DNA of 64,000 bases from a virus (lineage: Duplodnaviria; Caudoviricetes), in the IMG/VR virus record IMGVR_UViG_3300044796_000401; one strand, written 5' to 3'. Under the pieces are notes generated by a model, which saw only the letters and a program-made list of their open reading frames with translations, made no database searches and had not been told where the DNA came from. Both the position numbers and the translations under genes were made by a program. Shown one piece after another: positions 933 to 57,274 of the stretch (position 1 is its first letter; each line of letters opens with the position of its first letter).

Positions 933-3900
933 TTATCTGTGGCGGCCGCCCCTGCGGCTCCACGGGCTCCTCGGGGCCGTGCCGCTCGAATATCCCAGAT
1001 TTGTTGTGAGTTTCTTGGTCCTTTCCATGACCTTGAGGGTCGAAAGCGGGACGCCATCGATGTTCGAGAGCGGTGCCGGGGGCCTGGATTGCTGCTGTTG
1101 CATCAGGAGACCGATGCCCTTGGGGTCCATGTGCACGTTGCCTTCCTTGACGAGCCAGTTCTGGGCGAGCAGGGCGCAAAGCATCGCGGCGTCCGCCATG
1201 TCGTCGTGGGCTCCCTTCTCCATCGGCGCTTGGACGCGAATCCTGTACTTGGACGCCACCTCCAGTTCCACCAATTTCAGTTCCTTGATGAACTTCGGCT
1301 CGTACGGGAACGAGCAGAGCTTGTTCTCGATGTAGCCCCTGAGGGCGTACGCCATCTGCGAGTTGATCGCCGGGGTGATGTTCAGCATCTCGAAGTTGAA
1401 GATGCCGTTCAGTTCGAGAAGCTGGGCAAGCTGCTGACCTCCGTGCTGGTCGGTCGCCCCGCGGAAGCAGGGCAGAATCCTGTTGATGGCCTTCATCCAG
1501 ACGAGGATGTCTTCGAGCGGCAGCACCTTGTAATTTTCGTACCTCTTCTCCCCCGGCGCTTGCGGGATGAACGGCCCCGTGAAATGCTCCCCCACCATCA
1601 TGCGGTCGATGTAGTCATAGATCAGCCTGATGCCGCCCCCGCCGCCGTATTCGAGGTGCGCGATCGCGAGCGCGCTGGCGTCGCAGATCATGCCGAGGTC
1701 GAATCCCCAGAAGTAGTTGCGCCCGAGGTGAAGCTGCGGGATGAAGCTCACGACGTTCAGCCGGGTGCTGCCCTCCGTGGGCAGCCCCGTCTCGTCCCAA
1801 TGGCAGTCCACGCAGGACTTGACCGCGGCTTCCGTGACGTACGACTCGGACGATTCGAGGAACTGCCCGCCGAACTCGGCCCTGAACGTCAGGGGATTCT
1901 TTTCATGGTCGGCCCGCAGGGTCTTGGAAAGGACCTTGTTGTTCATCTCGGCGGTCGAGCAGTTCAAGGTGAAAATCGAGGAGGCGGCACCCTTGGACAA
2001 AGCCAGCTTGTGCAATTCGTACATCTTGCCGACCCGCTTCAGGGGCGAGGAGATGCTGAAGATCATCGAGTCCTGGACGCCGAATTGCCCAGGGAGGCGG
2101 GGAGCCAGAATGTTCTTTTCGTAGACCTGCGCCGAGATGTCCTCCTCAAGAACCTCCTCTTCGTTGTCGGGATCGGCTTCCGGAGGGATGGCTTCCGTCG
2201 TGCCATCGGCATAAATGCGTTCCGTGTGGTGGAAGTCCACGGTCGATGGAGTGGCTGCGGCGTACATGTCCTCCGATGTGCTGCCTTTTTCGGCGCGGAA
2301 ATGGGCGAATTCGTCGAGGGCGAGGAACACGGACGAAGGTCCGCGGACGGCGTTCGTGGAGCAGGGCAGCGACCACACCGTGAGGGTCGGCGTTATGTCC
2401 CGCTTGTGGCGGTCGGCTTCGCAGACAAAGGTCAGTTTCTTGCTGTTGTTGTCCCGGACGAAGGGCTCGAAGAAACTGCAATGGTTCACGCGCTCGCTGA
2501 GCTTCTTGAACAGGCGGTCAGCGCCGGTGTCATCTTGAGCCAAGTAGGTGATGTCTATGGGGGAGCCGGGGACCAAGCCGAAGAATTCCTGCGGCGAGCG
2601 GATGTTCAGAAGGAGGTACAGCTTGAAACAGGTGATGGCGGCGACAAGTTCCGAATTGTGCGTGATATTGAAGTTTTTGCCAAACAAAAACAAACCGTCC
2701 GGGTCTTCGACCGTCAAACAACGCACCATTCGCCTTCCAGCGGGTTCTATAGACACAACGTACCTGTATTTTTGAGTTTTACGCACAGTCACAGAGAGCA
2801 GATTAAGCTTCCTCTGTAGACGAAAAACAGAAGATTCTCCTGTCCATGTTACCCAATATTGCACTTTGTGCTTGGGGTTACGAGGGGGCACCTCTTTCCA
2901 ATAAGGCTTAAGCCCCAAACTTGCTGCTAAATGATACACTCCCTCCGAAAGATTACGTCTCGTGTTGGTGAATGTCACTAATCCTTTTGAGCATCCCCCA
3001 TCTGTATCTAACAAACCCTGCAATAGCGCCTTTCTTTGAGAAGATGAAGCCCAAAGATAATCATTCGGAATATGTTTGTTTCCAAGAACCCCCATTTTTC
3101 GCAACACAACTTTTAACCCGCGGATAGACCAACGATGTTTTCTTTTAGACTTTTTCCAGCTAAACCCGGCACTTACAAAATATTTAAGAATTTCCAAGGC
3201 GTCAGACTCTTCCGCAGCATAATTTCCTCCAGCGCTTTCTCCATCGCCTAACCAACACCCAAAGCAATACGGGTCAAGGGGAAGGTCTTTATCCGGTAGT
3301 TCAACCGCTCTAGGCAGCGGAATCGCATGATTAGAATAATTGCCGACTTTAAGTGTCTGAAAAATTTCTTGGGTTGTTTTTACAGACCCCATCGGTTGAA
3401 GTTTAGTACATAAACCAACTATTTCAGGGCGTGGCGCATACTCATAACCAGCAGCAACCGCCCTTACCCTGCGTTGTTCTCTGCGTGCTTTACGGTGTTC
3501 TGGTGTGCGATAACACGAGGCCATACGGTCAGCCCTAGTAAACGTCAGCCAGCGATGCTCTGGATGGGCCAACACGGATGTGCCGTCGTCGAATGTGACA
3601 CAATATACTTCTGAAACAAACGGCTCGTGGGCGTAAACAACCTTGGTAGGCTTACCGCTGGGAGATAAAACCATGTCCCCGTCCTTGATGTCACCGTTCC
3701 GAACAAACCCATTGGGGGTGGGGATAGGCTCATCCAAAGCGAGGGCCTTCCCCCCACGGCGGCCAGCAAAGACGACCGCTTCGTTGTACCCGCCGTAAGT
3801 CTTGCCGAGGTTCGGGATGTCCCGCCAATCGTCGATGTTGCAGCGGTTTTCGTTGAACGCTATGTGGAGGTACTCTTCCTCCGACACCGTGCGGATGAGC

Positions 3901-4175
3901 TTCTCGCGGAACACGTCCCACATCTGCACCTGGCCCCAGAGCGGGATGCGGTCGGCCCACTCCGGACGCCAATCCAGCGGCACGCCGAAGATGCACTTGG
4001 CGATGACGCGCTGCACGGGGCGCAGGACTATGCCGGTGCCCTGCGGGCCTTCGATGAACTCGACCGCGTTCATCAACTTGCGGTTGATGTCCGTTAGCCC
4101 GGCGCTGATCGCCTTGCCGAAGGCGGAATTCCTCTGCGCTTCCTTGTTGAATATCGAGACCCTGCGTGGCGGCAT
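933..4175 (-). CDS. terL: terminase large subunit, intein-containing
   Basis: Walker A region FAGRRGGK|S, Walker B FLALDEFAHF, coupling motif ISSP, and RNase H-like nuclease motifs WGFDLG and GAHDDMADA. Confidence 0.92.
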   Translation of the reverse strand: MPPRRVSIFNKEAQRNSAFGKAISAGLTDINRKLMNAVEFIEGPQGTGIVLRPVQRVIAKCIFGVPLDWRPEWADRIPLWGQVQMWDVFREKLIRTVSEEEYLHIAFNENRCNIDDWRDIPNLGKTYGGYNEAVVFAGRRGGKALALDEPIPTPNGFVRNGDIKDGDMVLSPSGKPTKVVYAHEPFVSEVYCVTFDDGTSVLAHPEHRWLTFTRADRMASCYRTPEHRKARREQRRVRAVAAGYEYAPRPEIVGLCTKLQPMGSVKTTQEIFQTLKVGNYSNHAIPLPRAVELPDKDLPLDPYCFGCWLGDGESAGGNYAAEESDALEILKYFVSAGFSWKKSKRKHRWSIRGLKVVLRKMGVLGNKHIPNDYLWASSSQRKALLQGLLDTDGGCSKGLVTFTNTRRNLSEGVYHLAASLGLKPYWKEVPPRNPKHKVQYWVTWTGESSVFRLQRKLNLLSVTVRKTQKYRYVVSIEPAGRRMVRCLTVEDPDGLFLFGKNFNITHNSELVAAITCFKLYLLLNIRSPQEFFGLVPGSPIDITYLAQDDTGADRLFKKLSERVNHCSFFEPFVRDNNSKKLTFVCEADRHKRDITPTLTVWSLPCSTNAVRGPSSVFLALDEFAHFRAEKGSTSEDMYAAATPSTVDFHHTERIYADGTTEAIPPEADPDNEEEVLEEDISAQVYEKNILAPRLPGQFGVQDSMIFSISSPLKRVGKMYELHKLALSKGAASSIFTLNCSTAEMNNKVLSKTLRADHEKNPLTFRAEFGGQFLESSESYVTEAAVKSCVDCHWDETGLPTEGSTRLNVVSFIPQLHLGRNYFWGFDLGMICDASALAIAHLEYGGGGGIRLIYDYIDRMMVGEHFTGPFIPQAPGEKRYENYKVLPLEDILVWMKAINRILPCFRGATDQHGGQQLAQLLELNGIFNFEMLNITPAINSQMAYALRGYIENKLCSFPYEPKFIKELKLVELEVASKYRIRVQAPMEKGAHDDMADAAMLCALLAQNWLVKEGNVHMDPKGIGLLMQQQQSRPPAPLSNIDGVPLSTLKVMERTKKLTTNLGYSSGTAPRSPWSRRGGRHR
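2655..3746 (-). mobile_element. intein (364 aa) with LAGLIDADG endonuclease, class 3 signature
   Basis: Begins ALALDEPIPTPNG right after GRRGGK and ends NITHN|S. LAGLIDADG-like motifs GCWLGDG and LQGLLDTDG. AT-richer than the flanking exteins. Confidence 0.93.
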
Positions 4176-4180
4176 GCTTA

Positions 4181-4203
4181 ACCCCTACTTAAAGGGGCGA
4201 AAA
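4181..4203 (-). promoter_or_regulatory. putative phage promoter motif TTTTCGCCCCTTTAAGTAGGGG upstream of terL
   Basis: The 16-mer TTTCGCCCCTTTAAGT (4187-4202) recurs exactly at 19530-19545; both copies lie 9-11 nt before an ATG. Confidence 0.5.
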
Positions 4204-4249
4204 GCGGGGTTATGCGGATTCCATGGAGGCTAGGTACCGCACGTCAGAA

Positions 4250-4512
4250 AGAGTGGAGCCGGGGCGTAGATTCCCGGCTCCTGTTATCGACTCCCCCGGC
4301 TTTGACCCGGCTGAGAACGGGAGTCCATATCTCGGGAAGTGGCTGGTCGGATTTCACATCCCTGTGATCGGCTCGCATCTCTCAGGGGATTTCGCGGGCG
4401 AGCCCATATACTTTTTGTGCTGCCGGGCATTCACCCCGGTTGCATCCCGTGCTGACCCACATGGCGGCGTTACCCGGTGCGATAGGGAATTTCTGGATGC
4501 AGCACAAACTCA
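4250..4512 (-). ncRNA. candidate structured non-coding RNA between the tRNA-like gene and terL
   Basis: No credible ORF. Nested inverted repeats at 4414-4423/4499-4508, 4423-4427/4435-4439, 4370-4376/4398-4404, 4289-4294/4320-4325 and 4255-4263/4273-4281. Confidence 0.5.
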
Positions 4513-4516
4513 AACT

Positions 4517-4626
4517 TGGAACGCGGGGTGAGAATTGAACTCACGACCTCCGTCTTAAATGGACGGTGCTCTGTGGGGCAAAACATTTAGGAGGTGACTT
4601 GCCCCTCTCGACTGAGCTACCCGCAT
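4517..4626 (-). tRNA. atypical tRNA(UUU, Lys-type anticodon) with ~33-nt D-loop insertion and encoded CCA
   Basis: Acceptor ATGCGGG/CCCGCGT plus T-CCA; TA-GCTC...GAGC D stem; anticodon arm CCGTC-CATTTAA-GACGG; variable loop AGGTC; T arm GTGAG-TTCAATT-CTCAC. A33 replaces U33 and the discriminator is U. Confidence 0.8.
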
Positions 4627-4641
4627 ATCGTCTTTTAATGC

Positions 4642-4983
4642 TTAGCTTTTTCCCATCTGCTGCAAAACGTCGGCCGCATGCTTTTGCGCGTCGGCGAATT
4701 CCTGGTCCCAATTGGAAGCCGACGCGATCTTTGCCATCGGATCGTGCCGCTGGAGGCCTGTGCCGCCCGTCTTGACCCTGCGGATGGCCGAAAGCTGGAC
4801 TTCCCCCTCGGGGGAAGCTCCGAGCCCCCGCATGAACGATTCGGGGTATTCGAGCCAGAGGTCCACGACAGCCTCTTCCGTCTCTTCGTTGCAGGCGGCT
4901 TCGAGCGTCCGGTCGAAGTCGTCCACCGTCTCCCGCCATCTATACTGCACAGCTCCTGCCGTCTTCCTGAGCCAGGCTTTCAT
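4642..4983 (-). CDS. hypothetical protein (MKAWLRKTAG...)
   Basis: Start re-called at 4983 (GAGG SD upstream), which removes the overlap with the upstream endonuclease gene. Confidence 0.65.
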   Translation of the reverse strand: MKAWLRKTAGAVQYRWRETVDDFDRTLEAACNEETEEAVVDLWLEYPESFMRGLGASPEGEVQLSAIRRVKTGGTGLQRHDPMAKIASASNWDQEFADAQKHAADVLQQMGKS

Positions 4984-4990
4984 TGTGACC

Positions 4991-6781
4991 TCATAAAGGC
5001 ATTGAATAGCGCCTTTTCCCAGAATCCCATATGCGATACCAACCCCCAACCCTTGCTGCTTGCTTTTCATTAACTCCGGCTTTGACCCGGAATGCATACT
5101 TAGAAACTCGTTTAACCCCATTTGTATATCCGTAATCCGGTCTAAGCTCCTTCTCAAATGTAAATCCAAGCTTTTCATACAGACTTCCTGTATGAAAGCG
5201 GTTGTCGGAAAAAGTCACCATGCGAGTGAACTCCATGGCCTTGAGCGACGGCTTCGCCATGGTTAAAGCCTTTTCATGGGGATTCCAAGCCTTAAACCGG
5301 CAATCCCAGCAAGCTCGGTGCCACAGCACGGTATGAGCTTCGCGTTTCATGAACACCCAGCAACCTACAATCTCTTCTTTGTATTTCGCCACAACAGTAA
5401 GACATCCACTGGCGGCCCCAAGATAATGATTGGCATCCAAAAACCCTCTAGCATCCTTGGGAGTTCCGCGTTCAACCGTGAAAATTGGATTGATGCGTTT
5501 TTTGCTTGTCGGTTTGATCGCATCACAAAGCATACGTTCCATGATATTGCGTTTGTTTTTCCATTCATCAGCGTAAATCTGGATCAGACGGTCTCCACGG
5601 TTCACGGCGATCAAACTCTTATCGTAGTCGGCTTTTGTCCCACTGTATTTTTCCGAGTGCCATATCAGTCCGTGATGCTCAACAGCTAGTTTCTTAGACG
5701 GGATGTAGATGTCATAACTTTTGCGGGTACCCAATATTCGGTAAGTTCCGTTGTACGTACTGGGCTCTAATGATGCCACAAACTTTCTGATTTCCGATTC
5801 GGGGGAAGCGGGACCTTGCCCCTTGCTACAGCCGCAGGAAATTGTTCGCCCCGAAATTATATTGAATAGGTTGGAAACGATTTTACCCCCGCAGTCGCAA
5901 AGCAAGCGTACTTTCTTTGTAACCCCCCATTCCTCGGGGAGAGGTTGGTTGGGGTCTATTTTAAGGCTGCCCCACGATTGGTCTAACCACTCAAATTTAG
6001 GCTTCCAATTGCAGCGACCGCAGGAACTAACGCGTTGATTTACAACATTGTAAATGCTGGTTGATACACTTCGGCCACAATCACAAATGAAACGTAGCGG
6101 TGCTGATCGCCCATCCCCCCACTCGTCCGGCAGGACTTGGTTCCCATCCAACGCTAGTTTTTCCCATCTCTGCTTTAACCAATATGCCTTGGGCTTCCAG
6201 CTACACTTACCGCAGGAGGTGGAGTTGCCTGACACAACCCACGATCCGCGTAGCGTAGAATTCCGGCCACATTGGCATTGAAATTCAAACTTCTTTGCTG
6301 ACATTAGATTGAATACGTCAGGTAAAGGTTGGGTTTTACGCAGAGAGTATTTGCCCCACTTCTGACTCAGCCAGTAGTTTTTTGGACGGTCATTGCAATG
6401 ACCGCAGGAAGCGATTCGTCCCGATTGAACATCAGGCAAATACTTGCGTGTAATACTGCCACAGATGCAGTTGAAGATTAAAAATTTGGCGTGGCTGGGC
6501 GGGAACTCCTTAGGAAGAGGTTGATCCGCTGATAGTTTCAAACTTCCCCAAGCCTGTTCGAGCCAATAAGAGGCTGGCTTACAGGTACATTTGCCACAAG
6601 ATTTGACCTGCCCGCGAGTTAGATTTTTGAACACAGGAGAGAACGATCTACCACAAGAACAGATCGCTGAAAGCTTTTGATGACTGCCCGGCCCCCACTC
6701 ATCTAGTAGATTTTGAGTGGGGTCTAGTCTAACCCCACCCCACAATTGGCCCAGCCAATAATCTTTCAGCATATACACCAA
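4991..6781 (-). CDS. Hef-like PD-(D/E)XK homing endonuclease with five Cys-rich repeats and a C-terminal GNAT-like domain
   Basis: Five ~64-aa repeats W..Q.WG...CxCG...SCGxC, then ESEI...YDIYIPSKKLAVEHHGLIWH (nuclease), then VTFSDNRFHTGSLYEKLGF (GNAT-like). AT-rich. Confidence 0.7.
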   Translation of the reverse strand: MVYMLKDYWLGQLWGGVRLDPTQNLLDEWGPGSHQKLSAICSCGRSFSPVFKNLTRGQVKSCGKCTCKPASYWLEQAWGSLKLSADQPLPKEFPPSHAKFLIFNCICGSITRKYLPDVQSGRIASCGHCNDRPKNYWLSQKWGKYSLRKTQPLPDVFNLMSAKKFEFQCQCGRNSTLRGSWVVSGNSTSCGKCSWKPKAYWLKQRWEKLALDGNQVLPDEWGDGRSAPLRFICDCGRSVSTSIYNVVNQRVSSCGRCNWKPKFEWLDQSWGSLKIDPNQPLPEEWGVTKKVRLLCDCGGKIVSNLFNIISGRTISCGCSKGQGPASPESEIRKFVASLEPSTYNGTYRILGTRKSYDIYIPSKKLAVEHHGLIWHSEKYSGTKADYDKSLIAVNRGDRLIQIYADEWKNKRNIMERMLCDAIKPTSKKRINPIFTVERGTPKDARGFLDANHYLGAASGCLTVVAKYKEEIVGCWVFMKREAHTVLWHRACWDCRFKAWNPHEKALTMAKPSLKAMEFTRMVTFSDNRFHTGSLYEKLGFTFEKELRPDYGYTNGVKRVSKYAFRVKAGVNEKQAARVGGWYRIWDSGKRRYSMPL

Positions 6782-9800: not shown

Positions 9801-10043
9801 GCATTTCTGTTCCCCTGCTGCCTTCTTGGAGGCGGTAACCTGACCGTCGTCGGATATTCCTTGATTCGGGATGACAGCTACGGAACCGTCCGCGAAGCGG
9901 ACCTTGGTTTCCTTATTGGGGTACTTTCCTGCCGGACCCAGATTCTCGACGATCTCCAAGTCCGTTCCCGAACGGCGGAAATCCCCGCCGTAGGAATACT
10001 TCGTCACGTCCCAATAACCCCAGCCCGCCAGCAATTTCGCCAT
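6834..10043 (-). CDS. large modular head-associated protein (1069 aa) with KxAA-delimited modules
   Basis: Long ORF with phage-like codon use, adjacent to the upstream gene by TAA-ATG. Contains Zn-ribbons, a YEGWTNWSTWHVALLIDN module and a wHTH-like module. Confidence 0.75.
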   Translation of the reverse strand: MAKLLAGWGYWDVTKYSYGGDFRRSGTDLEIVENLGPAGKYPNKETKVRFADGSVAVIPNQGISDDGQVTASKKAAGEQKCGRCGDPITKEPYRANGKLLCSQTCYDFERRGIPVGGKKAAEMIHSDNELGQKMEPAVPGPEAGPANDELHENSHSENGASPVLDGDLHSPERANVNAIREAIETQSEMEVGVPISEKQEEVKAEEAGKSVEIDAKPGKQIIINIASKNDEAIGGEDQGKITSGHGGGMFGGTDLEGPALESWDYPAKKAAALSKTAAISIRDLKKAGREFLGRIRTAAISVLQGRDASGFQMVILMDGREYVLRGQDAEDFRREYAGISRPENKVNALVEKYLWKLQPYKPKTTPQAPSRTVPERTQVMSSKTAADTMRCPWCGAEARKETHDGTYKCTKCPWQEQQRKAASSKKADEDGGYEGWTNWSTWHVALLIDNTESVYNTKRNLAANALKKGIGIKQLAGQFSRLFRKQAEETAQFHEDNAQNARDDRGEFERKELEGYQPQTKEEGFKHRVDNLFYGIGDVQNSWEQPMGEVNWEEIAESAVESEKEELKAAGKPIPEPKSKDKLDLTEEDQKLMQEMGIKGALSVPDRHQLRIAIDTLKAPDAMVGVMGGMNKEQALQVLARHGLRWDDADYMAGGKGVKKAAEYKEAMGDVMHGMQQGGKILSILEQGPKTTGEVNRLLGGEEHSNLAYPFLKELQDRGMVKQKQMRWYIVAKDKTMADDTKPKGVVKSQTELEKEAGFNFFFPGQVLKEFYPEIQHEIVDYPNATNTPQGVQAPEMVGEPDQQNLDTMIDNAMDNIGIVEAIQLPGDVGEVEEVHTSADYSSTSPAGAMGIGRDGKPEVLEGAPLRKENDIRGLMFTDEFYGNYDSVPGSSLQVASKSAAGSNSGNDDIRGAGDLWREQFYGQYEGGPSAESILQKKAAAGTEVEQFGMFLKKVCGEIAATMTSAFKVTSRPLLDKVPGVGEVQLAQIEQPQGMSSYNIVNTGSRVKYLLDKLSDSQVQDCINDSWSQAAVWNDSPKGGYVYEVFVRAESIDTDSMIMRYKFVCGTRE

Positions 10044-13000
10044 TTATTTATCCTCGCCCGCCTCGGGTTCTTCCGCCATGACTACATCAGCCAAGTCCCC
10101 GGCCCCGAGGTCGATGGGGATTTCCTCCGGCAGATTGTCGCCCGCCGCCGCTTCCTTGCCTGCCGCCATCTGCCCGAAGGTCCAGACGATCTGGTTGCAT
10201 TCATGGCAGAACATCTTCTTGCCTTCCGCGACTGTGAAGGTCTCCGTGTCGGGGGAGAAGCAGCGGGGGCATTCGCCCCTCGACGCCCTTTCCCCGCCGA
10301 TTCTGGGGTTCTGCTCTTGGCTCTCGAACAGCCCCGAGGCTTCCTTGTCGCTCGCCAGGATCGCCGGAACATCCAAAGCTTCCGGCGCTCCGCCGCCCAG
10401 GTTGGACACAGGCTGTTTGCCGCTTTCCGTTTCGCCCTGTGCCACAGGGATTTCGGACGCCGAAACCTTGGCGGCTTCCGGGACCGACTTGGTCTCCCGC
10501 TTGATGCTCGGGTCAACCGTATCGGGGCTCACAGTCTCGGACTTGGCTTCCGCCACGTCTCCGGAGACAGGAGCAGCGACCTTGGCCGCCTCCGGTACCG
10601 ACTCGGTTTCCTGATGGATATCTGTGTCCACGGTGTCGGGGCTCACGGTCTCGGACTTAGCCTCGGCCACGTCGCGACTAACATCGCTGGAAGTCAGAGG
10701 CAAGCTCATCTGGTTCGGGTCGGGCTCGGATGCGGGTTCCTCTTCATCGTACAGATTTCCGCCGTACTGCATCCATACGTTCTTTCCGCTCACTAGTTCC
10801 TCAACCATATCTTCGATCTGGTAGCGTTCGTGCCAGTAGACGTTCCCGCCCGGATCGGAAATGATCTCGCCAGAGGTCAATGCACCGATATCCTCGGGGT
10901 TGACCCATTCCCAGCCGTTGCCAGTGAAGTCTTCGAGCAAATCGTGAAGCTGCGGGTTCCATTCAACAAACCCCTTGCCCACATCAGCCTTGTTCTCAGC
11001 AACTTCGTTGAGAAGCTCCGGAGTCGGCTTCAGTGTGATGCCGCCCTTTGAATAAACAGCGGTCACATAGAGACCATCGAATTTGCCTGTCGGCTCGGCC
11101 GCTGTCTTGCTGCGCAGTTCCTCGGCCGAAGTGGTTTCCGGCTTCGTGTTGCTGTTCGTGGCGTAGGGGCTCACGGATTCCGCCTTGGCTTTCGCCAAGT
11201 CCTGCTGGATGCCGTCCGCCAACTTCTGGCCCGTGGGACCGTCGCTCGGCCCTATGTTGTCGATGGGCTTCTTCGGTTTTGGCGTCGTTATGGTTCCCAA
11301 GGCGGAGGCGCTCCTCGCGTTCGGCCCGCTGGTGTCCGCCTTGACGGCGTTCTTCTTGTCTTCCGGCGCTCCGTCGCCGTCCTTCCAGTTGTACGGGTTG
11401 TCGGCGGTATCGGCTTTCTTTTGGGATACGCCCGTGCGTGATGTGAGTGTGGATTTAAAATCCGGATGATGCCGCAGATTTTCTGCTTCATAGCCTCGCG
11501 GTTTTTCATCCGATTGTGCGGCACGATAGGCTGCCTGACAGCCACGACAAGTTGCATCCCAAGCAGGATGCTTTTCGCAATGCACCTGCTTTTCAAAACC
11601 GCCAGCGCCCTTGGACTGCTGCTTGTCATATTCCTTGTGGTGCTGCACGGTCGAAGATTCCCCGGTTTCCTTGGTTGGTGCTTCGCCCTTATCGGCGTCC
11701 ACGGCGTTGTCCGCAATGTCCGCCCTCTTCGGCTTGTCGGCCTTGACCTTCTTGGCAGACGTGTGGATGTCCCCTTCAAGAGGCTCGCCACTTTTGTCCA
11801 GATCGGGCTTCTCGTAAAGCTCTTCTTCCTCGGAAGGCTCTTGGCAGTTGCAAGACTCGCCCTCTTCCACATCGCTGCCGCATATCGGGCACTCGTTGTA
11901 GCGGACCCAGCCCTTTTCCGGCACCCACGTCTTCTTCCCGTTGGGGCAGCCAAGTTCGTGGCACGGTATCCCGTTGATGCTGAGCATCTCGCACTGGTCG
12001 CACCCGAACTTCGGCGCATCGGATTCCAGTTCGTCGGCTGCTTCCTTCACGAAGTCTTCCATGCTGGACGAAACCTGCCACGGCTTGTCGGACTCCGGCT
12101 CGTCATGTTCCTGCTTCGCCTCCGGCATGGAATCTTCTTGCGCCTCGGCTTCGGGCTCGGACAATGCCTTGTCGTCTTCCGGCTCGTCGCTCTTGAACGC
12201 CTCGGGCAACTCGCCTACATCTTTCTTGTTCGGGCGGCCATCAGTGCTGCCCTCCGGCTGCGTCGCGGTCTCACCAGGAACATCAATATCGACCAATGGT
12301 GCCGGTCCCATATCCTCGGTAATTTCTTCCCAGATCGAGTCGATGTCGAGCGCGACATCCGCCTGCTTGGGGCGGAGCTTGTTCAGCTTTGCTTCGCGCT
12401 CGTCATATGCCTTTTTGGTCTTCAAGGACGCCACTTCATAGCCCTCGTCGAAATCGGCGGCGATATGCTCGGCGATGAAATCCGCCTTGATTTGCTGGGC
12501 GGCTGTCTTAAGAGTCGGGTTTGGTCCCCATTTCCCTGCATCGATCTCTGCTGCATGGTCGAGCATGGCATGGTGCGGCTGCGCATCGGGCGTCGTGGTC
12601 TTGATGAGGTAGGCGCGGACATCCTTGGGCGGGAAGCTGTGCTTGTCGTGGAATCCACCCGTGCCATATGCCGCGGAGTATCCGCTGCCAAGGGAATTTG
12701 ACGAGCTTGCTGGCATGAGTCGCCCAGCGTCCGGATGTGTGCCGGGGTAACGCTTTCCCGTGCGGCTACGATTCTTGGTAATAGCGGCTTCCTTGTCAGA
12801 AGCGAGCACTTCCGGAAGAACCTTGACAGCGGTGCTGATCGCGCTGCCGACACCTTCCGCGGCGTTTTGCAGCGGATTTTCCTCATTTTGCGAATCTCCG
12901 TTAGTGGCTTTCTTCTCCGAAACCGTTCTCGGAAGCTCCTCCCCACTGGCGAAACCGCTGGGAAGCTGACGGAATGCCTCGGGGCTGTGGTCCTTCAGCC

Positions 13001-31554: not shown

Positions 31555-32279
31555 TTGTCCCCCCTAAACTTTTTGACGTTTTCTTCCGCCCGGAGCACTA
31601 TCCACATAGTGTCGGCTGGTTTGCTTAAATCTGCAAATTCTGGTTTGGCTCGGAATTCCTTCATCTCAAACTTGTAACCGGATTCTGTGAGACTGTTTCG
31701 GATAGAGGCGGGATCGCATCCCCCATCCTGACGGATGTCTTCGCAGATATAAATGCCTTTTGGACCGAGCAACGGAAACAACATTTTAATTGTCAGGACT
31801 TGATGAACAGGGTTATGAGAGCCATCATCTACGATTAGATCAATCTTTGCCAACCTCTCCTGTTGAATAAACCCCACAATATCCTGAGTTTTTGTAAGAG
31901 TTTCACCTGAAAGATGAAGGCTTGAACTCCCCCCGTCAACGTCTATAAAAGCCTCACCGTCTCTGTCAGAAAGAGCAAAATTCAATACCTTAATTTGCGG
32001 CGTGTTCTCAAATCTTTTGCTCGCCGTCTGATGAAACTCAAAAACCGGCTCAAACAAGTACACGGCAGCGGGGATGACGCCGCATCGTTTCAATAGGTCT
32101 GCTGTCCACCCCCCTTGGTACGCGCCAACGTCAAATACAACGCTGTCAGCGTCGAGGAGATAGTCTATCCTGAGTGTGTCTTCTCGACCGTCGTCATACC
32201 ACCTTTGCCTCATCACACAGTAGTCGGTCCAGTCTTTTTCCGAGACGAGTTTCAGTATCTTTTCTGTGGACTTATCCAT
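31548..32279 (-). CDS. chimeric SAM methyltransferase (FkbM-like N half, DDGSH-type C half)
   Basis: VFDVGAYQG...FEP...NFALSD followed by IDLIVDDGSH...GIYICED. Confidence 0.65.
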   Translation of the reverse strand: MDKSTEKILKLVSEKDWTDYCVMRQRWYDDGREDTLRIDYLLDADSVVFDVGAYQGGWTADLLKRCGVIPAAVYLFEPVFEFHQTASKRFENTPQIKVLNFALSDRDGEAFIDVDGGSSSLHLSGETLTKTQDIVGFIQQERLAKIDLIVDDGSHNPVHQVLTIKMLFPLLGPKGIYICEDIRQDGGCDPASIRNSLTESGYKFEMKEFRAKPEFADLSKPADTMWIVLRAEENVKKFRGDKC

Positions 32280-56233: not shown

Positions 56234-56272
56234 ACCGAAGCCCCTACAATAAGGTTCGGTAGATAAATACTT

Positions 56273-57256: not shown

Positions 57257-57274
57257 GCTCGGACCTTCCCCTAC

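What the first reader, a model, noticed from the sequence alone, without database searches (positions are those of the whole stretch)
4517..4626. tRNA-like gene displaying an anti-Shine-Dalgarno sequence in an inserted D-loop hairpin
Seen: an otherwise complete cloverleaf with encoded CCA carries a 7-bp stem (GGGGCAA/TTGCCCC, 4575-4581/4599-4605) in the D-loop. On the tRNA strand its 17-nt loop reads GUCACCUCCUAAAUGUU. Established: UCACCUCCU is the 16S rRNA 3' anti-SD core (GAUCACCUCCUUA); a chance 9-mer match in a 17-nt loop is roughly 9/4^9 (about 3e-5, post hoc). The tRNA is also non-canonical (A33, U73, no clear G18G19). Inference: a tRNA-scaffolded RNA that pairs with SD sequences, to block or tether host or phage mRNAs. 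Alternatives are a non-canonical intron removed during maturation, or a decayed tRNA with a coincidental insert.
Basis: partly seen in the sequence, partly recalled or inferred. Interest (0 to 1): 0.88.

Follow-up and report, generated by a model that had tools for sequence, protein, structure and literature searches.

The report
Phage tRNA with retained D-loop hairpin
A huge phage from peat and pond water carries a real, expressed lysine-type tRNA gene with a 35-base hairpin inserted in its D-loop that stays in the RNA, but the hairpin's copy of the ribosome's mRNA-docking sequence is missing from related phages, so it is probably not the point of the structure.

Summary
Window 4517-4626 (minus strand) is a full tRNA cloverleaf: Rfam tRNA 44.4 bits, missed by ARAGORN. 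It has an encoded CCA, U73, A33 and a 35-nt D-loop insert. The insert folds into the 7-8 bp hairpin, and its loop contains UCACCUCCU.

It belongs to a lineage of terL-adjacent phage tRNAs. Across 12 members 98.8% of cells pair, and 14 of 21 pairs show compensatory changes. Five members have a canonical UUUUUAR loop (anticodon UUU, U33).

The insert is lineage-specific. One orthologue (L087) has a homologous 40-nt insert with the same flanks, and another (L022) has a different 31-nt insert. At least six lack any, including one whose TerL N-terminus is 80% identical.

The anti-SD 9-mer occurs only in the window copy (shuffle p 0.00015, against 0.83 and 0.92 in the two other insert-bearing copies). 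GGAGG is not enriched before this phage's start codons.

One peat metatranscriptome contig keeps the insert. It joins CCA head-to-tail to nucleotide 1 (a circle, concatemer or artefact) and lacks two U of the anticodon loop.

Verdict: a processed, insert-retaining, non-canonical phage tRNA. SD pairing is unsupported but not excluded. The scan has noted anti-SD-like hairpins near other phages' tRNAs (unchecked).

The parts
4517..4626 (-). Whole tRNA gene, 110 nt (tRNA nt n = window 4627-n), including U73 (4520) and the encoded CCA (4519-4517)
   Evidence: Rfam RF00005 44.4 bits. Family model R1 80.3 bits. Cloverleaf covariation across 12 relatives. An RNA contig covers all of it.
4576..4610 (-). 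35-nt D-loop insert relative to insert-free orthologues (tRNA nt 17-51)
   Evidence: Insert columns in the model alignment. Absent from L023-L025, L090, L093, L094 and L095. A homologous 40-nt insert with the same flanks is present in L087.
4575..4605 (-). Hairpin: stem nt 22-28 with 46-52 (4605-4599 / 4581-4575); 17-nt loop at 4598-4582
   Evidence: Unique inverted repeat in the window. MFE fold.
4589..4597 (-). UCACCUCCU, the 9-nt identity with the 16S rRNA 3' tail (tRNA nt 30-38)
   Evidence: Sequence. Shuffle p 0.00015 in the window copy, not significant in L087 or L022.
4555..4561 (-). Anticodon loop CAUUUAA: A33 at 4560, UUU at 4559-4557
   Evidence: The RNA contig lacks 2 of the 3 U. 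Orthologues L087, L093, L095, L082 and L083 have UUUUUAR with U33.
4546..4551 (-). GGAGGU inside the tRNA itself (last 2 nt of the anticodon stem plus variable loop), perfectly complementary to loop ACCUCC (4595-4590)
   Evidence: One search lists the site. Duplex energy -10.7 kcal/mol; shuffle p 0.02 against the variable region and 0.09 against the whole 3' part; no counterpart in L022.
4642..5178 (-). Upstream conserved gene of unknown function (P0002); its stop lies 15 nt before the tRNA
   Evidence: Strain variants fall mostly at third codon positions.
4413..4511 (-). ~99-nt segment just 3' of the tRNA, bounded by a 10-bp inverted repeat and present only in this phage
   Evidence: Gap in L087 and L095 in alignment A3.
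4176..4412 (-). Conserved leader of terL. It holds two AUAUGGRYUC motifs and a hairpin with loop CUACGC (4255-4281). An RNA contig ends at 4399.
   Evidence: Alignment A3. Blast hit to L003/L038. Adapter-capped contig end at 4399.

Best explanation
This is a working tRNA gene of a lysine-type (anticodon UUU, U73) lineage that sits just upstream of the large terminase gene in a clade of huge peat, pond and soil phages.

Its stop-to-start distance from the upstream gene is 15 nt, so it may be co-transcribed with that gene. It is cut to a discrete RNA whose 5' end is nucleotide 1 and whose 3' end is the encoded CCA. The 35-nt hairpin stays in the mature RNA.

The hairpin is a lineage-specific expansion of the D-loop. 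It is shared in homologous form with one sister phage and absent from other close relatives. The acceptor, anticodon and T helices and the U8, A14, G15:C48 and UUC T-loop core are all kept, so the tRNA fold appears to tolerate it.

The exact anti-Shine-Dalgarno 9-mer is a peculiarity of this one copy, not the selected feature.

Inference, not shown: together with A33, the hairpin most likely changes how proteins that read the D-loop, elbow and anticodon loop see this tRNA. Candidates are host tRNA-targeting nucleases or modification and charging enzymes. On this view it is a non-canonical phage tRNA of the counter-defence or special-decoding kind, not an mRNA-binding RNA.
For: Real tRNA fold:
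- RF00005 scores 44.4 bits.
- In 12 family members 98.8% of cells pair. 14 of 21 pairs have compensatory changes, 0 of 500 shuffles reach the observed values, and the slid controls collapse.
- All five anticodon-stem pairs and most T-stem pairs differ between the window, L087 and L095 yet remain paired.
- The Levitt pair covaries: G15:C48 here, A15:U48 in L022 and L023.

Lysine-type lineage:
- L087, L093, L095, L082 and L083 have the loop UUUUUAR, and all have U73-CCA.
- ARAGORN calls Lys(UUU) after in-silico deletion of the insert.

Synteny: the tRNA lies between the P0002 homologue and terL in L087, L090 and L095, and upstream of terL in L022-L028.

Insert is an add-on:
- It is present in the window, L087 (same flanks) and L022 only.
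- In the 455-kb genome of L022 it is the only one of 64 tRNAs longer than 95 nt.

Expression and processing: a 138-nt RNA contig in a peat metatranscriptome covers 4516-4625 with the insert and joins CCA to nt 1. No DNA run laid shows that joint.

Anti-SD not conserved.

No GGAGG signal at starts.

Literature:
- Phage tRNAs escape host tRNA nucleases through sequence changes (PMC10264068).
- PARIS AriB targets tRNA-Lys(UUU), Thr(UGU) and Asn(GUU), and appears to contact the anticodon stem and D-loop (PMC12409363).
Against: - The RNA evidence is one low-depth contig (mean depth 2.4) from one run. Its head-to-tail joint and 2-nt loop deletion are not what a plain linear tRNA should give.
- A33 replaces the near-universal U33, and U73 is not the usual lysine discriminator. 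No unambiguous G18G19 is available. Efficient charging and decoding are therefore uncertain.
- No host, nuclease or synthetase is known, so the counter-defence role is inference only.
- A 9-nt identity with the 16S tail at shuffle p 0.00015 remains a striking coincidence if it is meaningless.
- Only three insert-bearing sequences exist, too few to measure selection on the hairpin.
Confidence: 0.55

Rival explanations
1. First reader's model. The tRNA body is a stable, RNase P-processed scaffold. Its exposed loop mimics the 16S anti-SD tail and pairs with SD-like sequences of host or phage mRNAs to block, tether or re-route translation initiation.
For: - 9-nt identity with the 16S tail in an apical loop, shuffle p 0.00015.
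- The insert is retained in the RNA.
- A GTAGGGG motif precedes terL and at least three other genes (4182-4188, 31561, 56241, 57268). The loop's CUCCUA can pair with UAGGGG.
- The scan's unchecked notes report anti-SD-like hairpin loops next to tRNA genes in other phages.
Against: - The sister insert in L087 has only a 4-nt match and L022 a 3-nt match. At least six orthologues lack the hairpin. The 16S tail is invariant, so a mimic of it should be conserved.
- GGAGG is not enriched before starts in this phage, 27 against 27.3 expected.
- The hexamer shared by the three loops (YCCUMA) is not significant once composition is kept, p 0.14.
- The terL start regions of L087 and L022 do not covary with their loops (by eye).
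Confidence: 0.12
2. A non-decoding tRNA-like RNA with another role, possibly a covalently closed circle. The hairpin loop would pair in cis, or between molecules, with the RNA's own GGAGGU (variable-loop region). The RNA would act in regulation or packaging near terL.
For: - The RNA contig is a cyclic unitig: 138 = 108 + 30 for k = 31, with the joint CCA|A1.
- The loop's ACCUCC is perfectly complementary to nt 76-81, at -10.7 kcal/mol and p 0.02.
- A33 here. Orthologues have 6-nt anticodon loops (L022, L090, L094) and anticodons that switch between UUU, CUA and UUA/GUU readings. That looks loose for a decoder.
- The position next to terL is constant across the clade.
Against: - The joint could come from template switching, from ligation during library preparation, or from a tandem copy in that sample's strain.
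- The intramolecular complementarity is not significant in L022.
- Five family members (three of them terL-adjacent orthologues) have entirely canonical Lys anticodon loops.
- No precedent was found in the literature searched.
Confidence: 0.15
3. An intron-like insert that is removed to give a normal ~75-nt tRNA.
For: Deleting 31-41 nt restores an ARAGORN-callable tRNA-Lys. L022's insert is flanked by a CAGAGC direct repeat.
Against: - The RNA contig keeps the insert, and no joint skipping it was reported.
- 35 nt is far too short for a group I or II intron, and no Rfam ribozyme hit was found.
- No bulge-helix-bulge motif is present. The stem is continuous, and the context is a bacteriophage.
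Confidence: 0.05
4. A tRNA gene on its way to decay. It was hit by a small palindromic insertion, and the anti-SD match is chance.
For: - A33, no clear G18G19, and a 2-nt shorter loop in the RNA.
- A second window-specific palindromic insertion lies directly beside it, at 4413-4511.
- The plus strand of the insert reads as a strong RBS, which would fit a piece of foreign intergenic DNA.
Against: - All four helices are intact and were maintained by compensatory change after the insert arose, as the window-L087 comparison shows.
- The sequence is identical in pond, peat, freshwater and virome data sets from 14 studies.
- It is expressed and end-processed.
Confidence: 0.1

Closest known systems
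Phage-encoded tRNAs with altered anticodon loop or stem that escape host tRNA nucleases (T5 tRNA-Lys(UUU) against PARIS AriB; PMC10264068, PMC12409363)
   Same: A phage tRNA of the Lys(UUU) type. It deviates from the canonical sequence at the anticodon loop and D-loop, sites that nucleases read. It occurs in a tRNA-rich large phage.
   Different: Known cases are point substitutions in a 76-nt tRNA. Here a 35-nt hairpin is added and U33 is lost. No nuclease or host is known.
Class II tRNAs (Leu, Ser, Tyr) with a long variable arm
   Same: An extra helix projects from the tRNA core and is kept in the mature molecule.
   Different: The extra arm here emerges from the D-loop (or the 25/26 junction), not from positions 44-48. 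It is not a synthetase identity element that anyone has described.
Engineered 'tRNA scaffold' RNAs (recalled from memory: Ponchon and Dardel, 2007)
   Same: A foreign hairpin is displayed on a tRNA body that provides processing and stability.
   Different: The engineered scaffold replaces the anticodon arm. This natural RNA keeps a full anticodon arm and carries the hairpin in the D-loop.
C/U-rich-loop regulatory RNAs that pair with SD sequences (S. aureus RNAIII and RsaE, B. subtilis RoxS; recalled from memory), and anti-SD-like hairpins noted by this scan near other phages' tRNAs (unchecked)
   Same: A pyrimidine loop with CCUCC on a stable hairpin.
   Different: Those loops are conserved across homologues and have mapped targets. 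Here the motif is confined to one phage, and no target is shown.
Phage suppressor tRNAs of stop-codon-recoding phages (bioRxiv 10.1101/2021.08.26.457843)
   Same: Orthologues at the same locus (L023-L028, L090) carry a CUA anticodon. Related genomes hold several tRNA(CUA) genes.
   Different: The window copy reads UUU in the standard register, and the window's genes are open in the standard code.

Membership tests
tRNA (Rfam RF00005) | Score at or above the family's gathering threshold | tested here: met
   44.4 bits against 29. It was missed when the whole window was scanned with default filters and by ARAGORN.
tRNA (Rfam RF00005) | Four-helix cloverleaf kept by compensatory change | tested here: met
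   12 relatives: 98.8% of cells paired, 14 of 21 pairs changed on both sides, 0 of 500 shuffles as good. The D-stem is invariant, so it is uninformative.
tRNA (Rfam RF00005) | Core tertiary nucleotides: U8, A14, the R15:Y48 pair, a T-loop starting UUC, G53:C61 | tested here: met
   Read from the sequence. The 15:48 pair covaries with L022 and L023.
tRNA (Rfam RF00005) | U33 and G18G19 | tested here: not met
   Position 33 is A (4560). GG occurs only at the base of the inserted stem. Another tRNA of L022's genome (L084) also has A33 before UUU.
tRNA (Rfam RF00005) | Mature ends at +1 and CCA in RNA | tested here: met
   The RNA contig's joint is CCA(4517)|A(4626) with one ambiguous letter. One run, depth 2.4.
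tRNA (Rfam RF00005) | Aminoacylation and use on the ribosome | not testable with these tools
   Needs acid-gel or periodate assays and polysome tRNA-seq.
Anti-SD mimic / SD-pairing regulatory RNA | Exposed CCUCC-containing loop | tested here: met
   Apical loop CCUCCUAAA in the MFE fold.
Anti-SD mimic / SD-pairing regulatory RNA | Motif conserved in homologues | tested here: not met
   L087 shares 4 nt and L022 3 nt with the 16S tail, p 0.83 and 0.92. At least six orthologues have no hairpin.
Anti-SD mimic / SD-pairing regulatory RNA | Complementary SD targets in the genome | tested here: inconclusive
   GGAGG is not enriched before starts. GTAGGGG precedes terL and at least three other genes and can pair with the loop using one G.U. 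The host is unknown.
tRNA intron (group I, or archaeal bulge-helix-bulge) | Ribozyme core or BHB motif, and absence from the mature RNA | tested here: not met
   No Rfam hit other than tRNA. The stem is continuous and has no bulges. The insert is present in the RNA contig.
Suppressor tRNA | Anticodon complementary to a stop codon in the standard register | tested here: not met
   The loop CAUUUAA gives UUU. UUA appears only if the register is shifted by one. Orthologues L023-L028 and L090 do have CUA.

The most novel reading that the evidence does not exclude
A natural 'tRNA scaffold'. On this reading the phage keeps a tRNA body for processing and stability, possibly closing it into a circle. 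It uses a D-loop hairpin as a free-evolving display arm. In this phage the arm has become a mimic of the 16S anti-SD tail. It would compete for the SD-like GUAGGGG start regions of terL and other late genes, or for a ribosomal or defence protein that binds the 16S tail.
Probability: 0.1. Interest if true: 0.85.

Novelty: new variant of a known kind. Interest (0 to 1): 0.55.

Why it matters
Natural tRNAs that keep a whole extra hairpin in the D-loop region have, as far as the literature searched here shows, not been described. ARAGORN missed this one entirely, and the whole-window Rfam scan missed it too.

If the RNA evidence holds, the tRNA fold tolerates a large expansion at a site thought to be tightly constrained by elbow contacts. 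This bears on three questions:
- how phage tRNAs diversify under pressure from tRNA-targeting defences;
- how many odd phage tRNAs are overlooked;
- which positions of a tRNA can carry cargo.

The head-to-tail RNA joint, if real in vivo, would be a rare bacterial or phage case of a circular tRNA-sized RNA.

Tried and rejected
Searches that found little or nothing:
- Blastn of the tRNA and leader against 50,697 phage records: no match.
- Exact insert in IMG/VR: none.
- Shared insert flank in IMG/VR: none.
- Pattern scans for insert-bearing relatives. IMG/VR gave L022's contig plus one chance hit, L040. JGI metagenomes gave L022's contig only.
- Scan for any tRNA with CACCTCC in a D-loop insert in IMG/VR: no second case. 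It returned L085, a tRNA-like match whose ~39-nt extra stretch lies in the anticodon-arm region in the model alignment and was not examined further, and L086, with no significant tRNA match.
- The closest terL relatives, L001-L008, have no orthologue in the loci fetched, with filters off.
- The predicted plus-strand ORF behind the AGGAGGTGA (TTG at 4599, 58 aa) overlaps the tRNA and the conserved minus-strand gene. Its RBS is absent from L087, so it was rejected.

Hypotheses tested and dropped or left weak:
- Intramolecular pairing of the loop with the variable region: p 0.02 here but not in L022. Kept only as a weak idea.
- Shared loop hexamer YCCUMA: p 0.14. Rejected as evidence.
- Stop-codon recoding of the window: no sign of it.
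- Pairing of each loop with its own terL start region: no covariation, by eye.

Limits on the RNA evidence:
- Only one RNA run holds the tRNA.
- The parts of the leader without cover in the RNA run prove nothing.

Full report
**What is there**

Read on the minus strand, 4626->4517 is a 110-nt tRNA.
- Acceptor stem: 7 bp.
- D-stem: GCUC/GAGC.
- Anticodon arm: CCGUC-CAUUUAA-GACGG.
- Variable loop: AGGUC.
- T-arm: loop UUCAAUU.
- 3' end: U73 and an encoded CCA.

Rfam's tRNA model scores 44.4 bits against a threshold of 29, with a 39-nt insertion state in the D-loop. ARAGORN finds no tRNA in the window. The whole-window Rfam scan at gathering threshold also missed it. Deleting 31-41 nt of the D-region in silico makes ARAGORN call tRNA-Lys(UUU).

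The inverted repeat GGGGCAA/TTGCCCC at 4575-4605 is unique in the window. In the MFE fold it extends to 8+2 bp around an apical loop CCUCCUAAA. The loop shares 9 consecutive bases (UCACCUCCU, 4597-4589) with the 16S 3' tail. Composition-preserving shuffles reach that in 0.015% of trials.

**Context**

The window is part of a huge-phage-like genome. The tRNA lies 15 nt after a conserved small gene (4642-5178) and 341 nt before an intein-bearing large terminase gene (933-4175).

The same sequence, at least 99.9% identical over 1.2 kb, occurs in pond, peat, freshwater and virome data from 14 studies. No variant falls inside the tRNA except A->C at nucleotide 1 in one contig.

**The family**

I built a covariance model (R1) from the window and first relatives. 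I then searched loci fetched through terL, through the upstream gene and through the TerL N-terminus. Orthologues at the same position are as follows.

| Locus | Length | D-loop insert | Anticodon loop |
|---|---|---|---|
| L087 | 115 nt | 40 nt | UUUUUAA |
| L095 | 76 nt | none | UUUUUAG |
| L093 | 74 nt | none | UUUUUAA |
| L094 | 75 nt | none | CAUUAA (6 nt) |
| L090 | 75 nt | none | UUCUAG (CUA) |
| L023-L028 | 75 nt | none | CUA |
| L022 | 106 nt | 31 nt | 6- or 8-nt loop; ARAGORN reads a 4-base GUUA |

Paralogues elsewhere in related genomes include L082 and L083 (UUU), L081 (CUA) and L084 (UAUUUAA, again A33). All terL-adjacent orthologues and three of the four paralogues (not L084, which has G73) have U73 and an encoded CCA.

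Across 12 of these sequences 98.8% of cells form standard pairs. 14 of 21 pairs show changes on both sides, and no shuffle or slid control comes close. Between the window, L087 and L095 every anticodon-stem pair has been replaced compensatorily. The 15:48 tertiary pair also covaries: G:C here, A:U in L022 and L023. This is a tRNA fold under selection, not a relic.

**The insert**

L087's insert has the same flanks as the window's (AGU-CGAGAGGGG ... CCCC-ACA-GAGC) and the same hairpin base, so the two are homologous. The inner stem and loop differ in sequence and length.

L095, whose TerL N-terminus is 80% identical to the window's, has AGU-AG-ACA at that place and no insert. L022's insert is unrelated in sequence. 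It is flanked by a CAGAGC direct repeat and follows a complete D-arm with G18G19, so it can equally be read as a hairpin between positions 25 and 26.

In L022's complete 455-kb genome this is the only one of 64 tRNAs longer than 95 nt. The hairpin is therefore a dispensable, lineage-specific expansion of this particular terL-adjacent tRNA.

**Is the anti-SD sequence the point?**

- Longest identity with the 16S tail: window 9 nt (p 0.00015), L087 4 nt (p 0.83), L022 3 nt (p 0.92).
- The three loops share a hexamer pattern (UCCUAA, CCCUCA, CCCUAA). Composition-preserving shuffles do as well in 14% of trials.
- GGAGG is not enriched in front of start codons in the window: 27 occurrences against 27.3 expected. 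K-mer enrichment finds only TAGGG, GTAGG and AGGGG, weakly.
- GTAGGGG does precede terL and at least three other genes. The window's loop can pair with it using one G.U. This is the only hint of targets.
- The loop's ACCUCC is also perfectly complementary to the tRNA's own GGAGGU at 4551-4546. The duplex energy is -10.7 kcal/mol, with p 0.02 against that region and 0.09 against the whole 3' part. L022 shows nothing comparable.

**RNA evidence**

One metatranscriptome (peat, run X20, Logan contigs) holds a 138-nt contig at depth 2.4. It covers 4516-4625 continuously, insert included. It runs from the CCA end straight into nucleotide 1 ('goes back 110', one ambiguous letter). Its length equals 108 + 30, as expected for a cyclic k = 31 unitig.

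None of the three other runs laid (two recorded as probable DNA, one of unrecorded kind) shows this joint. So the RNA exists, keeps the hairpin, and has ends exactly where a mature tRNA should. The joint itself may reflect one of four things:
- a covalent circle;
- template switching between molecules;
- ligation during library preparation;
- a tandem copy in that strain.

I cannot tell which.

The same contig lacks two of the three U of the anticodon loop. This may be a reverse-transcription skip at a modified base or a strain allele, and it remains unexplained. Another contig of that run ends at 4399 with an Illumina adapter, directly after a conserved UAUAUGGGCUC motif. That suggests a discrete RNA end for the terL leader. 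No other RNA run holding the tRNA was found.

**Interpretation**

The best reading is a processed, insert-retaining, non-canonical phage tRNA of a Lys(UUU)/U73 lineage. Its relatives have repeatedly changed anticodon (UUU, CUA, UUA/GUU readings) and loop size.

What the hairpin does is not shown. Phage tRNAs are known to diverge at nuclease contact sites (PMC10264068). PARIS AriB, which targets Lys(UUU), Thr(UGU) and Asn(GUU) tRNAs, appears to contact the anticodon stem and D-loop (PMC12409363). The most economical inference is therefore altered protein recognition.

The anti-SD model keeps about 0.12 probability. A non-decoding or circular RNA role keeps about 0.15, decay about 0.10 and splicing about 0.05.

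**Comparison and novelty**

I found no description of natural tRNAs with a retained D-loop hairpin in the literature searched. Reported irregular phage and metagenome tRNAs concern acceptor and T-stem geometry (PMC5389517).

The scan's own earlier notes mention anti-SD-like hairpin loops beside tRNA genes in other phages. I did not test those notes, and they do not bear on conservation at this locus.

I rate this a new variant of a known kind.

Noticed in passing
window 10040-10050 (minus strand): The two giant ORFs 15107-10044 and 10043-6834 are in the same frame, separated by a single TAA that is followed at once by ATG (..GAU AAA UAA AUG GCG..). Reading TAA through gives one 2797-codon frame. 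Orthologues of the odd tRNA in related phages have stop-codon-like anticodons.
   Followed up: partly
window 4413-4511: A ~99-nt segment directly 3' of the tRNA, bounded by the 10-bp inverted repeat TTTGTGCTGC/GCAGCACAAA, is absent from L087 and L095. It is a second window-specific palindromic insertion at this locus. It contains CCGCCAUGUGGGU, which resembles a CCACCAUGUGUGGG hairpin found after the tRNA in L022 and L023.
   Followed up: partly
window 4255-4281; L087 3112-3138; L095 ~383-409; L022 ~5490-5521; L023 ~5336-5368: A conserved GC-rich hairpin upstream of terL. Its stem covaries, but its loop always contains CUACGC, and it is followed by a U-rich tract. It is terminator-like with an unusually conserved loop.
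   Followed up: partly
window 4399-4411 and ~4316-4326; also L087, L090, L095: The motif AUAUGGRYUC occurs twice in every terL leader. An RNA contig ends, adapter-capped, right after the first copy at 4399. It may be a phage promoter or a processing site.
   Followed up: no
L076 (G005:138200-138900), L077 (G003:192200-192520): The window's closest terL relatives carry 49-69 tRNA genes where the record is rated complete. These include several different tRNA(CUA) amber suppressors side by side, two of them with ~30-nt variable arms (101-102 nt). One tRNA has a 15-nt D-loop and a 9-nt anticodon loop.
   Followed up: partly
L079 (G003:191389-191548) and L080 (G004:302704-302837): Two further tRNA-like genes with very large internal insertions (about 89 nt and about 60 nt) but intact acceptor and T arms. 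L079's acceptor stem resembles the window tRNA's.
   Followed up: no
L022 5387-5392, L090 ~2907-2912, L094 ~965-970: Orthologues of the tRNA have 6-nt anticodon loops (UGUUAA, UUCUAG, CAUUAA) closed by perfect 5-bp stems. This is a recurrent non-canonical loop size in the lineage.
   Followed up: no
window 4182-4188, 31561-31566, 56241-56246, 57268-57273 (minus strand): GTAGGGG or TAGGGG lies 6-11 nt before the start codons of terL and at least three other genes, while GGAGG shows no such placement. It may be a private SD-like start signal.
   Followed up: partly
window 4626: One environmental contig (L074) has C instead of A at tRNA nucleotide 1, which would turn the 1:72 pair into a C.U mismatch.
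   Followed up: no
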